Shown piece by piece: positions 33,001 to 39,000 of a DNA stretch of 64,000 nt. The stretch lies in contig JBMFOP010000001.1 of NCBI GenBank assembly GCA_049969675.1, positions 32,001 to 96,000 of the forward strand, in the 5' to 3' direction. Numbering within the stretch: position 1 is the first letter of the stretch; every line of letters starts with the position of its first letter. Made by a program: the position numbers. Source of the DNA: Myxococcota bacterium. GTDB lineage: Bacteria; Myxococcota; SpSt-1050.

Positions 33001-36000
33001 TTAATTCTGATACATCCCTTCTTAGAGCCGCAAGAGATGCAAATATCAATCTGTTTAATATAGCAAATAACCACATCTATGATCAGGATATAAAAGGGTT
33101 TTTAGAGACGATAGAGAATTTTGAATCGGAGAAGATAAGATATATAGGCACATATACCGATGATAAGCCACGCCCTCTATTCCTGGAAAGGAATGGGATC
33201 AGGGTGGCATTCTTTGGATTTACCACGCTCTTAAATAATCAACCCGATTACGGCCGGCTCAGGGAGTATGTTAGAAAGTATATAGGAGAGAAGGATACAG
33301 AAGAGATCAGAAAGGCTAAAGAGAAGGCAGATATTGTGATTGTTTATATACACTGGGGAGAGGAATATAAGAAGGAGCCAGACGAATCACAGATCAGTCT
33401 CGCAGATGAATTGATTGAGGCTGGCGCAGATATTATAATTGGTGGACATCCACATATACTCCAGCCATTGAGTCTTATAGCCTCAAATGATATGCGGATT
33501 GTCCCTGTGGCATTTTCAATGGGAAATTTTATCTCAAATCAGAGCCGAAATTATGCATTTCCTATATCCGGTGAAGATGAGGGGAGGACAAGGGACTCCG
33601 CAATATTGAGATTTAAGCTAAAAAAATATTCTTACAACGACTTTTCCTTTACTGTGGTCTCGGAACTCTATTTTGTGCCTCTCTGGACATACAACAATGA
33701 TATCCAGTTTTCAAAGGGGGTTGAAAAGAGACTTAAGATATATCCATTCCCTATCACGGAAAGGATAGAACAATTGAATAAGGCAATTGTGGTAGAGAAG
33801 GATGAAAATAGGAAGAAGGAACTCCTTCTGGAACTTGAAAATCTGTTGTTGAGGCTCAAATTGATAAAGGGTACACTCGGAGAAGATTATGTAAGATAGT
33901 ATGAAATACTCTCCAATTATATGGGCATCAGCATATCTGATAAGCAGGTTAATCAGGAGTTACAGATATGTAGTCAGTAATGATGCTATTGTACAGAATT
34001 GCAAAAGACCTCCGGTCTTTGCTCTATTCCATTCTACTCAGATGTTGGTTGCAAGTTATAGAACCAATTTTAAGACCAATATATTGGTAAGTCTTTCAAA
34101 GGATGGGGAGATAGCAGCACAGGCATTACAGATGCTCGGCTTTGGAGTGGTAAGGGGTTCTTCTTCAAAAAGGGGTAGAGAGGCACTTGATGAATTGATA
34201 TTAAAGGTCAGATCCGGAGAATCAGCCGCTATTACAGTTGATGGTCCACGGGGTCCCTGTGAAGAGGTAAAGAGTGGAATAATAAGACTTGCGTCAGAGT
34301 CAAATGCGCCAATAGTTTGTGTATCAGCTGCTGCAAAGGTTATGTATAGATTAAAGAATTCCTGGGACCGTTTTATAGTTGCACCCCCTCTTTCAAAGGT
34401 CTTTATCTCTTTTTCGGACCCCATCACTGTCGATAGAATAGTGGATGCTGAAGAGATAAAATTTTTTAAGAGTCTAATAAAAACAAAATTGCGCTCCCTG
34501 TTTGAGGATTCTCTCAAAATGGTTCAAAAAATTTAAGAGTTATGTTATATAAATTTCAAGAGGTGTGGATTGCATAGGTATTATAAAGAGAATCAGGATA
34601 TTGAAGGACAAAGGCTTGCCTGTGGTAAATATAGTCGCAGGGTTCTACAGGATCTGCTTAAACTATCAGATATTCATTGTAATATAATTGCAATGGGTTG
34701 GGTTGGAAATCGTATAGTGATTGATATTCTCCCACAGGGTAAAAAAGAGGACTCACTAATCACGCTTTATATTGCAAAGAGGGTAGATACTCAACCATCC
34801 CTTTTAAAGACCGACTTTCTGGATATATACTACAGTAGTAATAAGAATAACGAGGACTTTGCAAGACATATCCTATCTCTTAAGATTAATGATATCACTT
34901 TCGCTCAGCTAACGAAGATCTTAAAAGATGACCCTGAACTTGGAGACCCATCTCTCTCTATGCCCACATCAGAGGCGGCGGATAGGCCAGAGAATCATCT
35001 GGACAGCTGGGGTGGAAGGGATTTATACGCCAATTTCTTCGCCGAGGGAGAATTTGCCAGAGGACAGTTAGATTCGGTTAATATCTATGAGAATTGTGTC
35101 TTTATTCAACATTCTGATATAGAATGCGTCTCGTTAAGGCCAAATCTGGATTTGAGACTCATTAAGTTTCTGGTAAGATATCCATGGCTCTCCCCAAATC
35201 CAGAGAAATATAGTGGTATCAGACGTGATGAACTCCCGGATGTTAATAAATTCTTCTCTACTGACCTCAGGGAGAAAGATATTATAATGGGGCATAATAA
35301 GGTTAGAGATGCACTTGAATATGTCCTTAATAATGTTAAGAAGAAGAATATCTTCCTCTCCAATACCTGCACCCCTGTTGTGATAGGGGAAGATGTAGAA
35401 TCTTTAGTAAAAAAGGCTAAACAGAGGAGAAAGGACCTCTTATATCTTACAGTCACTCCTCAATCAATGGAGGTAGTATTAAAGGACTTATTTAAAATTC
35501 CATCTAAAAGAATGAAGAGAAAGGCTCATAATCTGATTAATCTTATGGGTTATGAAGATGATAATTACATAAGACAGTTAATAAAGTTTCTAAAAGATTT
35601 AGGAATTGAAGTAAATTCTACTGTTATACCTGATGTCTCAGTAAAGACCCTTAATAAATATTTTAAAGGCGGTGTTGATATACTAAAACCAAATTCTCTC
35701 TGGAGCCATCTCTATATGCAACTTAACTCTATGTCTGGACATAAATATATTTCAATTGACTCACCATATGGCTTTTTCGGGACAATCAGATGGATAATTG
35801 AACTCTTAAGAATCCCTGGAAGAAAGATATCTGAGGATGAGATAATGAAGAGAATAAAGCCCGAGATCATTGATAGATATTTGAGATTGAGAGAAGCAAT
35901 GAAATCTATAGGTGTTATCTTCATTGTGAGAAAGGATGAAGTTGGATATCTCACCGATTCTGCTAAGTCGTGGGGTGTACCTTTGATAAAGTTCTTCAGA

Positions 36001-39000
36001 GAGATGGGAAGTAAGATAGAGGTATTCATAAAGGCTCAAAGCCTTGAAGAGGCAAAGTCTGCATCAACTCAACTATTAGGTTTTATTTCGGATTATCATA
36101 ATTTTGAGATAAGATATTTTGATTCTTTTGAGAATATGATGAGACTGATAAAGAGTAGTATGGCTCAATTGGTTTTTACAAATCATTCAAATGATTGGAG
36201 GATAACATCGGGGGGAAAGCATTCTCTCTCACTTACGGATTTTGAAGTCGGTTTTGAAGGTGCAATATATACAATGGAAAATATTTTGAACCTCGCAAAT
36301 AATCAATTTTTCAAGAGGTATGCAAGGTATTTACAGAGGGATTTTAAGGGAAGCTATGAAGAGAGAGAACAAAGGTAGAAAATTCTCTCAGAGGTTACTG
36401 AGCCCATATATGGTGGGAGTCTATCTCGGTGTTAATGCTGTGAAGGATTTTTATCTGCTTGTAGATGGGCCGGATTGCTCATATATGAAGACCCAATATA
36501 TAGGAATGAATCAGGACTTCTATGCCAATCTTACAAATCTATCTGGTTTTCACAGAATAGGAAATACTGCATTACATCCAATTATGATGGCATCTTCAAG
36601 AGAGGAGAAGATTCTCTCTGCTTTATTAAAGATTGCAAAAGGAGAATTTGTCTCTGCGGTTGGTATCACTCCGATGCCAATGGCAGCGGTTACCGCGGTA
36701 GATTATAGTCGGTTATTAAGGGAGGTGAGCAGGAGATATAAAAAACCAACATTTGAGTTCAAGAATAAATCACTCTCGGGGGATTGGATGGATGGTTACA
36801 TGGAATTCGGGAAGGTGCTTGCATCCAGTATGGAGATTGGGAAGGTCAGGAAGAGACGAAGGTCTGTGGCTATAATCGGTTATTTATATGATAGAAACGA
36901 ATATGATAATATTGCAAATATCGCTGAGCTCAAAAGAGTCTTTCAGGGGATTGGTGTAAATGTCGCGGGTATATGGTTTGATGGCGGCGGTTTTATGGAT
37001 CTAAAATCAGTATCTGAGGCTGACCTGATTATTTCGTTTGGATATCTCAGAGATGCTGCGAGAATCTTATCAGAGCGGCTAAAGACTCCGGTGATGGAAT
37101 TTGATTATCCAGTGGGGTTTGAGCAGACGGGTGATATATTAAAGAGGGTATCTGAATACTTTGAAATCAGAGACGCATCCACCTTCATTGAGAGAGAGAC
37201 AGAGGCAATTGTGAGGAGAGTAGAGTCACTTATAGAACAATACTTAATACGACTCAGGGTGTTTTATTGTGGGGACCCGATTCTATTTAATTCAATTAAA
37301 TCAATGCTTGAACTTGTTGGAATGAAGATTGAATATGCCATTATTTCCAATACATCTGAGAAGTCATCTTATGTAAAGGAGCCAATTAAGAATATTATTT
37401 TTGAACCGTCTATCAACGATGTCTTTGAGGTTGGTCTAAAGATGGCAAGAGAGGATAAGATAGACCTATATGTCGGCAATAGTGATATGAGTTCATACTT
37501 TATCGGGAGTGGGAAGGCGGCGGTTGAGATTGGATTCCCTTCTTATTTCTCGCATTGTATCGCAGAAATCCCTTATGTGGGTTATAGAGGGTATATGCAT
37601 CTTCTGAACAGGATTATAAAAGAGCTCAGATTTGCTGAGGTCAGAAAGGTCTTTAGAGAGCAAGGGATAGAGTCATTCATAAAAAATAAAATTTTATAAC
37701 TTCTGGATATTGCTAACTGTAGATTTTTCTTGAAATCTTTTTCAGATTGTGTTAGGGTTTCTGCCGCTGCCGAAGTGGTGGAATTGGTAGACACGTACGT
37801 TTGAGGGGCGTATGCCAGCGGCGTGTGGGTTCGAGTCCCACCTTCGGCATTTTTTTTTGCCTTTACTTGCTTTTTGAAATTATAATTTTACATTATTAAT
37901 ATTTACAATGGATTGAGTAAAGGTTATTATTTATCTGTTTTGAGGGTTAGCTCTGGTCTGTCTTTTGAGGCAGGTAAGAAGTCTTGAAGAAAAAATATTT
38001 ATATTTAAATCTCAATCTAAATAAGAGTATAGCCTTTAAGGTATCGCTTGTGATATCTATCGCCATACTAATTATTATGGGGACTGGATTCTATTTTCTC
38101 CTTGATATGCAAAAGAAGGCTATTAAGAAAAATATTGATGATTATTTTGCCTCCATTTATGAGATGGTTCTGGTTACAATAAAGGACCAGCATACCTTGA
38201 ACGGAACACTCCCTTCAAAACAGCTACGGGATATAATGAAATCCCACAAAGAGATTATATCTTCCAATATCACCAATTATTATGGTGTAATTAAATGGGC
38301 TTCAAATCCCTCTGATGTAGGGAAGATAAATAAACTTGTGAATGAGGTAAAGAAGGAGTGGGGAGGTGCGGATATCAGGACAGGGGTAAGGATTCTTGAA
38401 AATAAGAATGCTACTCAGATTGTTACACCAATTATGCCCGAACAGATCTGCGTCAAATGTCATCAGGATAGAAAGGAACCCATAGGATTTTTTATTGCGG
38501 AGAGTATTAGTTTTTCAACTCTATTTAGCGACATCTATAAATTTTCTACTGTCTCGTTTCTTGTAATTCTGGATACAATTCTGGTAACAATGCTCATCCT
38601 CTCTTTAGCACTGAGGTTTTATGTAGTTAAACCCATTGATACACTTTTGAGTATGATTCAGGCTGTGGAGAAGGGGAATTTCCTCGTGAGGGCAGATATA
38701 AAGAGGGAGGATGAACTTGGTATCCTCTCTCGTGGCTTTAATAATATGCTCAAGAAGATTACCGACCTTATGGTCTCTCAAATGGATCAGGAGAGACAGG
38801 TTGTACAGATGCAACAGGAGTTAAAATATCGTGATGAGATAGAGGAGAAAGGGAAGAAGATTCTTGAGATTAATGCCTCACTTGAGAAGAAGTTGAATGA
38901 ACTTTCGCTCTTAATCGAACTCTCATCAGCCCTCAATTCAAGCCTTGAACTGGATGATATACTTGAATCTCTGGTAAATATCCTGCACAGGAAGATGAAC

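What a model noticed while it worked through the whole genome (the two positions that open the first line are those of the whole stretch)
34570..37699. Myxococcota-restricted nitrogenase-like H/D/K system with dedicated radical-SAM and cobalamin-rSAM/DUF483 partners
Two adjacent, very divergent NifD/E- and NifK/N-like genes (g00064, g00065) and a NifH-like ATPase (g02002, C75:2024-2839) belong to a set that in other Myxococcota is one H-D-K operon embedded in a type-4 His-Xaa-Ser (HXS) locus: HxsD, HxsB, HxsA4 repeat peptide, HxsC4-like and B12 radical-SAM genes; here the same parts are scattered (HxsB-HxsA4-HxsC4-like g01995-g01993 at C74:7837-11624, HxsD g01434 on C43, HxsC-like g00873 with the cobalamin-rSAM/DUF483 protein g00872 on C20, HxsC-like g01160/g01161 on C31). 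Boldest reading: the nitrogenase-like, ATP-driven reductase is a maturation enzyme of the (Ser-His-Gly/Ala)n peptide HxsA4, i.e. the first nitrogenase homologue working on a ribosomal [...]
Evidence so far: g00064 best Swiss-Prot hits NifE 23% id, E 8e-10; g00065 NifK 27%; g02002 NifH2 50%; NCBIfam: no model over cut-off, nearest nifE 1.5e-15, BchB, BchZ; g02002 nearest CfbC/NifH 1e-88, below cut; fold of g00064 model (pLDDT 76) nearest NifEN 1.6e-12, Mar reductase 3e-11. 27 clusters in 5.8 billion proteins, all Delta/Myxococcota bins where named; phmmer of 1.84 billion representatives: 574 at E<=1e-3, 101 at <=1e-30. 17-sequence alignment: invariant Cys186 (QHSDxEC) and Cys267 (SNTCxPVxGEDVES), conserved 220-aa N-extension; that these are two of the three cluster Cys of NifD/BchN and that no FeMo-co ligand is kept is my reading from recalled motifs; g00065 Cys41; g02002 keeps P-loop and Cys95/ [...]
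(Added by a program. Inside this text positions count along the whole contig: contig position 32,001 is position 1 of the stretch shown here. "Call 12" and the like, gene names such as g00115 and contig names such as C1 are that model's own, and its searches are not shown. The text may have been shortened before it was handed on; [...] marks where a part breaks off. The agent that wrote the report below was given it as the finding of a first reader that could run no searches.)

Follow-up and report, generated by a model that had tools for sequence, protein, structure and literature searches.

The report
Group VI nitrogenase-like peptide-tailoring reductase
These two genes encode the catalytic half of a known but never-characterised nitrogenase relative (Group VI), and a shared add-on domain plus near-constant co-occurrence tie it to a histidine-glycine-serine repeat peptide pathway, which suggests that it modifies a peptide rather than the pigment-like cofactor proposed so far.

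Summary
Both genes are real, at window coordinates. They are not Myxococcota-restricted: relatives are named Elusimicrobia. They are Group VI nitrogenase-like genes (Méheust 2020), still uncharacterised and proposed to reduce a tetrapyrrole. The link to the type-4 His-Xaa-Ser (HXS4) system holds by genome: HxsB in 55 of 57 NflD/K-positive genomes, HxsA4 in only 12 of 379 negative ones. One shared operon is the minority (10 of 60 loci), and HXS4 occurs without the reductase. New here: the ~110-residue N-terminal domain of NflD also sits on HXS4-locus radical-SAM enzymes, halogenases, glycosyltransferases and Tat-exported proteins. It was found in 24 of 401 genomes, all HXS4- or NflD-positive. 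Two rSAM–NflD fusions exist. This genome lacks HemB, HemC and NifB. Best reading (0.6): an optional ATP-driven reductive tailoring enzyme of the (His-Gly-Ser)n peptide; substrate and chemistry are inferred. This scan noted the Group VI–HXS link before on other genomes; my look-ups found no note of the shared domain.

The parts
34570..36378 (+). nflD (g00064): Group VI nitrogenase-like alpha subunit, 602 aa; accessory domain (about residues 12-125) plus nitrogenase component-1 fold (137-599)
   Evidence: PF00148 E 7e-29; model pLDDT 90; Z about 21 to NifD and MarDK over residues 137-599
34603..34944 (+). N-terminal accessory domain of NflD, shared with HXS4-locus rSAM enzymes, halogenases, glycosyltransferases and exported stand-alone proteins; proposed substrate or scaffold docking module
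   Evidence: folds alone at pLDDT 95; profile match to 80 non-NflD copies, probability 95%, E 3.7e-8; reciprocal HMM and reversed decoys; genome survey
35110..35127 (+). His181-x-Asp-x-Glu185-Cys186 motif; Cys186 aligns with the second NifD cluster cysteine
   Evidence: conservation 95-99%; profile alignment to NifD/NifE
35368..35370 (+). Cys267; aligns with the third NifD cluster cysteine
   Evidence: 99% conserved; profile alignment
36356..37699 (+). nflK (g00065): beta subunit; likely start ATG 36356 (447 aa), overlapping the nflD stop by 23 nt; longest ORF starts 36320
   Evidence: PF00148 E 2e-43; sequence at the junction; Atlas record begins at residue 13, nearest clusters commonest in Elusimicrobiota and Myxococcota
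36476..36478 (+). NflK Cys53 (DGPDC motif), the only conserved cysteine of the subunit; inferred third cluster ligand
   Evidence: 96% of 99 rows, no other cysteine column above 30%
34560..34565 (+). Shine-Dalgarno-like GAGGTG before the TTG start of nflD
29659..34536 (+). co-directional upstream genes (MEMO-like, CapA/PGA_cap, DUF374 by Pfam; a PilZ-like and a J-domain-like ORF by recalled resemblance); context kept in two congeners, not part of the system elsewhere
   Evidence: L034, L036; not among recurrent neighbours of the family

Best explanation
NflD and NflK form the catalytic component of a two-component, ATP-driven reductase whose Fe-protein NflH is encoded at C75:2024-2839. Shown: fold, cysteine pattern, family membership, co-occurrence, shared domain. 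Inferred: NflH passes low-potential electrons to one [4Fe-4S] cluster at the D/K interface, held by D Cys186, D Cys267 and K Cys53 with a fourth non-cysteine or open site; there is no P-cluster or FeMo-cofactor. Inferred: the enzyme is an optional tailoring enzyme of the type-4 His-Xaa-Ser pathway. HxsB, HxsD and HxsC-like rSAMs first modify the HCS(HGS)nW core of HxsA4; further enzymes are recruited through a common ~110-residue domain, and NflD is one of them. My single most likely reaction is a 2-electron, 2-proton reduction of an unsaturated unit (histidine ring, dehydro residue or cross-link) left by its partner rSAM of the g00873 type, by analogy with the C=C reductions of DPOR, COR and CfbCD. 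The product is probably exported; its role is unknown.
For: (1) HxsB over cut-off in 55 of 57 NflD/K-positive genomes; HxsA4 in 19 of 21 and 34 of 35 further genomes, against 12 of 379 reductase-negative genomes. (2) Joint absence within families: 4 of 18 genomes of family f4 show neither; G439 lacks NflD, HxsB and HxsA4. (3) Shared domain: an HMM built only from non-NflD copies recovers 28 NflD N-domains (best 1e-8; reversed database best 0.12) and 111 other proteins, 81 with an rSAM motif; profile match 95%; with own-genus rows left out it picks only NflD (9e-4) and g00872 (0.02) among 7,126 ORFs of this genome; 24 of 401 genomes hit, all HXS4- or NflD-positive, 9 of them without a training row; 0 hits in 1,832 ORFs of 41 control loci. 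(4) The same domain sits on two flavin halogenases and two PMT_2 glycosyltransferases in reductase-negative HXS4 loci. (5) Fusions: P0063 joins a g00873-type rSAM to NflD, P0189 an HxsC4-like rSAM to NflD of another clade. (6) The g00873 orthologue (E<=1e-35) is in 30 of 32 tested genomes of this NflD subclade, 0 of 12 reductase-negative HXS4 genomes and 0 of 13 genomes with other NflD clades. (7) HxsA4 has a conserved leader motif and repeat core typical of a peptide precursor. (8) No HemB, HemC or NifB in this 99.9%-complete genome; HemB in 44 of the same 57 genomes.
Against: (1) The link is one-way: 12 HXS4 genomes have no Group VI hit, and their core sequence is the same. (2) Kin are not independent: the positives of the 401 sample fall in five families, and 18 of 20 genomes of another family carry HxsB, two of them without NflD. 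(3) HxsA4, HxsB or HxsD is near the reductase in only 10 of 60 loci, and 14 of 60 show no marker at all, among them a whole NflD clade, L168-L181, whose genomes were not searched. (4) The domain was not detected in 40 of 115 NflD rows, including all H-D fusions and the main f4 clade. (5) G406 and G106 (70% complete) have NflD but no HxsA4, HxsB or HxsD found, though G406 has an HXS4-type rSAM. (6) The domain survey scored only 11 candidates per genome and 15 of the 24 positives supplied training rows. (7) In this genome the parts lie on at least eight contigs. (8) Elusimicrobiota were not tested genome-wide.
Confidence: 0.6

Rival explanations
1. NflHDK belongs to the HXS4 machinery but does not touch the peptide: it is an ATP-driven source of low-potential electrons that activates or re-reduces the many rSAM and cobalamin-dependent enzymes, and the shared domain docks enzymes onto a common protein scaffold.
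For: Explains co-occurrence, fusions to rSAMs and an unchanged core in reductase-negative genomes; this genome has 15 ORFs whose best hit is a B12-type rSAM.
Against: Reductase-negative loci hold 4 to 17 rSAM genes and manage without it; the domain is also on halogenases, membrane glycosyltransferases and Tat-exported proteins that need no such electrons; conserved K residues away from the cluster (Asp43, Asp66, His78, His412) suggest a substrate pocket (inference).
Confidence: 0.17
2. NflHDK with its partner rSAM makes or reduces a small building block or cofactor (possibly a scavenged corrinoid, or its own metal cluster as with NifB, MarB or IsrB) that serves the HXS4 pathway.
For: One dedicated rSAM per NflD subclade resembles the NflB-HDK pairing of isethionate reductase, where the rSAM's role is unsettled (PMC11423573, passages); B12-type and HemN-like rSAMs are frequent neighbours.
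Against: The partner rSAM is nearest HxsC and itself carries the shared domain; only three cysteines remain, with no FeMo-cofactor cysteine.
Confidence: 0.13
3. The published proposal: Group VI reduces a tetrapyrrole to make a new cofactor, independently of the peptide system.
For: Groups IV-B and V reduce tetrapyrroles; NflD keeps the same two cysteines as CfbD (PMC13474568); HemB is present in 44 of 57 positive genomes.
Against: HemB is missing in all four genomes of this genus and in 6 of 16 high-quality positives, HemC in the three tested; no chelatase or tetrapyrrole gene is among the recurrent neighbours; the neighbouring rSAMs are mostly HxsC/HxsC4-like. Scavenging of tetrapyrroles is not excluded.
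Confidence: 0.05
4. The association is shared ancestry: both gene sets were inherited together in a few lineages and are functionally unrelated.
For: Positives cluster in few families; genes are dispersed in this genome.
Against: Does not explain the shared domain, two separate rSAM-NflD fusions, or HXS4-type rSAMs beside NflD in Elusimicrobia-named loci L192 and L204.
Confidence: 0.05

Closest known systems
Group VI nitrogen-fixation-like NflH/NflD/NflK (Méheust et al. 2020, 10.1101/765248; reviewed in PMC13474568)
   Same: Same clade by NflH tree with Elusimicrobia-named members; divergent D and K lacking several cluster cysteines; no NifB; many rSAM neighbours; reported in Myxococcales.
   Different: Here H is unlinked from D-K and the partners are dispersed. 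The texts read propose a tetrapyrrole substrate and do not mention His-Xaa-Ser genes or the accessory domain (0 hits for 'Hxs').
Type-1 HXS anti-phage system HxsD-HxsB-HxsC-HxsA (Li et al. 2026, PMC13128918) and NCBIfam type-4 models NF038313, NF038332
   Same: HxsB, HxsD and HxsA4 over cut-off in this genome; rSAM maturation of His-Xaa-Ser repeats; export of the product is plausible.
   Different: Type 1 has four genes, a ~214-aa effector with a peptidoglycan-binding domain, a +8 Da (+C, -4H) change, and no nitrogenase homologue (0 hits). Here the precursor is a leader plus HCS(HG/AS)nW with 15 repeats and about ten HxsC-like rSAMs; none passes the HxsC or HxsC4 cut-off. No phage defence is shown.
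DPOR (BchLNB), COR (BchXYZ) and CfbCD
   Same: Fe-protein plus a catalytic component with one [4Fe-4S] cluster; NflD keeps the two cysteines CfbD keeps, NflK one cysteine, as BchZ does (PMC13474568).
   Different: The first alpha-subunit cysteine is missing, so three cysteines in all; extra N-terminal domain; all models far below cut-off; no pigment or F430 pathway context.
RiPP recognition element (RRE, PqqD fold; role recalled from memory)
   Same: A small domain found alone or appended to unrelated classes of peptide-tailoring enzymes of one pathway.
   Different: No PqqD or RRE entry among the 50 best structural matches of either search; no Pfam or PDB sequence match; some copies are Tat-exported or on membrane glycosyltransferases; binding is not shown.

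Membership tests
Group VI NFL | NflH forms a clade with Elusimicrobia Group VI NifH, apart from other NifH/NflH | tested here: met
   Own H and two Elusimicrobia-named H lie in a clade of 75 (support 0.95) with none of 16 control H inside; Méheust's reference set itself was not available
Group VI NFL | NflH keeps the GxGxxG P-loop and the two cluster cysteines | tested here: met
   GKGGIGKS, Cys95, Cys131
Group VI NFL | D and K highly divergent, at most four of six P-cluster cysteines, no FeMo-cofactor cysteine | tested here: met
   Three conserved cysteines; no Cys at the first alpha site or at the FeMo-cofactor cysteine site
Group VI NFL | No NifB in the genome | tested here: met
   TIGR01290 best 32 bits, cut-off 344
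Group VI NFL | Radical-SAM genes adjacent | tested here: inconclusive
   Not adjacent in this window; adjacent in most relatives
Type-4 His-Xaa-Ser system | HxsA4, HxsB, HxsD over curated cut-offs | tested here: met
   69.6/55, 538/370, 57.3/50
Type-4 His-Xaa-Ser system | HxsC4 over cut-off | tested here: not met
   C74 gene scores 186 against 500; only one own-genome HxsC4-like protein was scored with this model; a true HxsC4 was seen in G227 (587)
Nitrogenase (Groups I-III) | Six P-cluster cysteines, FeMo-cofactor ligands, NifB | tested here: not met
DPOR / COR | Three cysteines from the N/Y subunit; model scores | tested here: not met
   Two conserved Cys in NflD; BchN, BchB, BchZ models below 50 bits
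CfbCD | Homodimeric D; scores over cut-off | tested here: not met
   Separate K subunit; CfbC 295/402, CfbD 28/268
RiPP recognition element | PqqD-like winged-helix fold | tested here: inconclusive
   Best Z 5.2 to an unrelated PH-like entry; no listed RRE
RiPP tailoring enzyme | Changes the mass of the precursor peptide | not testable with these tools
   needs reconstitution and mass spectrometry
HXS anti-phage system (type 1) | Protects against phage DNA entry | not testable with these tools
   only contextual: one reductase-negative HXS4 locus lies beside a retron-type RT

The most novel reading that the evidence does not exclude
Group VI nitrogenase-like enzymes are peptide-tailoring reductases, the first nitrogenase homologues acting on a ribosomal peptide. 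HXS4 is a modular pathway in which an undescribed, non-RRE docking domain recruits rSAMs, halogenases, glycosyltransferases and this ATP-driven reductase to a (His-Gly-Ser)n core, and Tat-tagged stand-alone copies of the domain carry or bind the product outside the cytoplasm.
Probability: 0.45. Interest if true: 0.92.

Novelty: new variant of a known kind. Interest (0 to 1): 0.74.

Why it matters
[quoted passage not shown] This work names a concrete candidate substrate, a partner enzyme and a docking domain, all small enough to express and assay. If right, it adds peptide modification to nitrogenase-fold chemistry, replaces the tetrapyrrole proposal, and supplies a new recognition domain for finding and engineering peptide-tailoring enzymes. 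The enzyme family itself is already known, so the novelty lies in the link and the domain.

Tried and rejected
Subtracting 32000 from the coordinates gives secretion-system-like genes, not the pair. 'Myxococcota-restricted' seemed to hold in the named-genome scan (46 family loci, all with Myxococcota/Deltaproteobacteria-type or unreliable bin labels), but its motifs came from one subclade; rejected. Word-indexed homologue searches saturated and missed distant members; 20 representative look-ups gave no organism names. The accessory domain as an RRE: no match; absence from these lists does not exclude a distant relation. Complex prediction of the domain with full-length HxsA4: no verdict, score 0.00, partner fold uncertain; counted neither for nor against. 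A core-sequence difference between reductase-positive and -negative HxsA4: none. A common substitute reductase in reductase-negative loci: none found; halogenases in two genomes only. Genome-wide tests in Elusimicrobiota: the loci had no held genome, so untested. RNA evidence: no RNA holder listed. Promoter scan uninformative. The profile alignment of NflK to NifK was ambiguous around Cys53, so its equivalence to the second beta cysteine rests on motif position. Literature: no paper joining Hxs genes and a nitrogenase homologue in searches; the library lacks most subscription papers, and the supplement of 10.1101/765248 (neighbourhood figure S6) could not be seen and may label these genes.

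
Full report
OBSERVATION. The coordinates are window coordinates. Two co-directional ORFs, 34570-36378 (602 aa) and 36320/36356-37699, both match the nitrogenase component-1 family PF00148, and no NCBIfam model reaches its cut-off. 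A model of the first from a 65-row alignment (pLDDT 90) superposes on NifD, NifEN and MarDK over residues 137-599. The genome (3.05 Mb, 39% GC, 188 contigs, 99.9% complete) has one NifH-like gene on C75, HxsB-HxsA4-HxsC4-like on C74, HxsD on C43 and further HxsC-like rSAMs on C1, C16, C20, C31, C61 and C132. It has no NifB, HemB, HemC or heme-copper oxidase subunit I.

WHAT FAMILY IT IS. A scan with motifs from a distant clade gave 53 family loci among 80 kept. Exact look-ups of 10 proteins named three as Elusimicrobia, directly or through a cluster member (OGR47819.1, OGS00712.1, MBI5238883.1), two as Myxococcota and one as Deltaproteobacteria. The own H groups with the Elusimicrobia H in a clade of 75 (support 0.95) that excludes all 16 control H. 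This is Group VI of Méheust et al. (10.1101/765248; passages and section 16 read), found in Elusimicrobia, Gracilibacteria and 14 Myxococcales, with rSAM neighbours and a proposed tetrapyrrole substrate. A 2026 review (PMC13474568; passages read) says the group has no characterised member. That the window's phylum is Myxococcota is inferred from the names of relatives.

METAL SITE. NflD keeps His181, Glu185, Cys186 and Cys267; NflK keeps Cys53 only. Profile alignment places Cys186 and Cys267 on the second and third NifD cluster cysteines, with no cysteine at the first or at the FeMo-cofactor site. These are the two that CfbD keeps. Three cysteines across D and K fit one [4Fe-4S] cluster with a fourth non-cysteine or open site; this is inference.

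CO-OCCURRENCE. In 401 genomes of the phylum, 25 matched NflD, 21 at E<=1e-20; four weak hits were dropped, and G091 was added for a K-like fragment. HxsA4 was found in 19 of the 21 (17 over cut-off, two below) and in 34 of 35 further positive genomes (32 over cut-off). HxsB passed its cut-off in 55 of all 57, HemB in 44 of the same 57. Of 379 negative genomes 12 carry an HxsA4 precursor; nine have no PF00148 hit at all, including a closed genome, and three only strong canonical-looking hits; one further over-cut-off hit in a 481-aa frame (G032) was not counted. So the reductase almost never occurs without HXS4, but HXS4 often occurs without it. Kinship weakens this: five families carry the 401-sample signal, and 18 of 20 genomes of another family have HxsB. 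Physical linkage is looser than claimed: among 60 non-redundant loci of at least 14 kb, 10 hold HxsA4, HxsB or HxsD, 32 hold some HXS4 marker gene, 46 when the domain below is counted, and 14 none; 0 of 12 control loci hold any.

THE PRECURSOR. Across some 60 genes HxsA4 has a conserved leader motif, a variable linker and a core H[C/V]S(HGS)nW with about 10 to 59 repeats in complete copies; many leaders carry a twin-arginine-like stretch. The core does not differ between genomes with and without the reductase. In the characterised type-1 system the repeats receive a +C/-4H change and the effector is exported (PMC13128918; abstract, passages and sections 8-10 read).

THE SHARED DOMAIN, THE NEW RESULT. 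Residues 8-135 of NflD fold alone at pLDDT 95 with no clear structural match (best Z 5.2). A profile of this domain hit non-NflD proteins that were nearly all rSAMs. A reciprocal profile from non-NflD copies alone recovered 28 NflD N-domains and 111 other proteins, 81 with an rSAM motif, against a best decoy E of 0.12; the two profiles align at 95% probability. With own-genus rows removed, only NflD and the C-terminus of g00872 were hit among 7,126 ORFs of this genome, the latter weakly. The domain also occurs on two flavin halogenases, two PMT_2 glycosyltransferases and at least 11 stand-alone rows with a twin-arginine signal (some repeated across overlapping loci) beside HxsA4. In the 401 genomes it was found in 24, all among the 34 HXS4- or reductase-positive genomes, and in none of the other 367; nine positives had supplied no training row, but only 11 candidates per genome were scored. 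It has no Pfam or PDB sequence match. It was not detected in 40 of 115 NflD rows, including H-D fusions and one clade with a different extension.

PARTNERS. The g00873 rSAM family tracks this NflD subclade (30 of 32 tested genomes at E<=1e-35; 0 of 12 reductase-negative HXS4 genomes; 0 of 13 with other NflD clades), carries the domain in relatives and is fused to NflD in P0063; P0189 fuses an HxsC4-like rSAM to another NflD clade. g00872 has a non-canonical cysteine motif and DUF483; no B12-binding domain was detected, and homologues of its rSAM-like part occur in 5 of 12 reductase-negative HXS4 genomes and 0 of 10 double-negative genomes.

MECHANISM AND VERDICT. One small domain placed on four unrelated enzyme classes of one peptide pathway is most simply a docking module, and NflD carrying it is most simply a tailoring enzyme of that pathway (0.6). 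The reaction I favour is ATP-driven reduction of an unsaturated unit left by the partner rSAM. Rivals are electron supply to the rSAMs (0.17), a cofactor or building block for the pathway (0.13), an independent tetrapyrrole (0.05) and mere co-inheritance (0.05). No binding or chemistry has been shown. Searches found no paper joining Hxs genes and a nitrogenase homologue; for PMC9062424, PMC9447857 and PMC11423573 only passages were read, and the preprint supplement of Méheust et al. was not visible. Earlier notes of this scan reached the Group VI-HXS idea on other genomes; they are not independent evidence, and I had reached the assignment before reading them. None of the notes returned describes the shared N-terminal domain. 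Score 0.74: a known, unexplained family with a newly testable substrate and an undescribed domain.

Noticed in passing
L190:2901-5204, L198:9062-11359, L201, L207, L212; P0067, P0079, P0081, P0090 and others: NflH-NflD fusions are common (16 of 31 long proteins scanned); most of those in fetched loci lack a detectable accessory domain, while a second, unfused NflD in the same locus keeps it (L186, L198).
   Followed up: partly
L086, L087, L084, L092, L041, L096, L248, L250, L251, L253, L254: Stand-alone copies of the shared domain with twin-arginine signals sit beside HxsA4 genes whose own leaders lack such a signal; hitch-hiker export of the peptide is a possibility, not tested.
   Followed up: partly
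G446 (several contigs): 17 matches to the NflD profile in one 5.7-Mb genome, a large paralogue expansion or a mixed bin.
   Followed up: no
L085:6633-8081 (G227): A retron-type reverse transcriptase lies 2 kb from HxsA4 in a closed, reductase-negative genome, a defence-island-like context.
   Followed up: no
G000 contigs C33, C36, C44, C52, C110: 15 ORFs whose best hit is a B12-type rSAM, in three clusters, in a genome without HemB/HemC; implies cobalamin scavenging.
   Followed up: no
L058 (G162): Two tandem HxsA4 genes with 35 and 59 His-Gly-Ser repeats.
   Followed up: no
L339:6942-8471 and 10576-12789 (G277); L092:272-2533; L343:7818-10415: Flavin halogenases and PMT_2 glycosyltransferases carrying the shared domain suggest halogenated or glycosylated HXS4 products.
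   Followed up: partly
L335, L084, L181: Large MopE-repeat proteins recur beside HXS4 or Group VI loci.
   Followed up: no
L170, L184, L201, G000 C60:5176-6075; L212:14212-15675: RlmN/Cfr-like and HemN-like rSAMs recur near Group VI genes; they could be peptide methyltransferases rather than tetrapyrrole enzymes.
   Followed up: no
L168-L183: A clade of NflD (two members named Myxococcota) with no HXS4 marker within 10 kb; whether their genomes hold HXS4 elsewhere is unknown.
   Followed up: no
window 659-6781: Run of type II secretion or pilus-like genes, judged by eye from the translations; looks ordinary.
   Followed up: no
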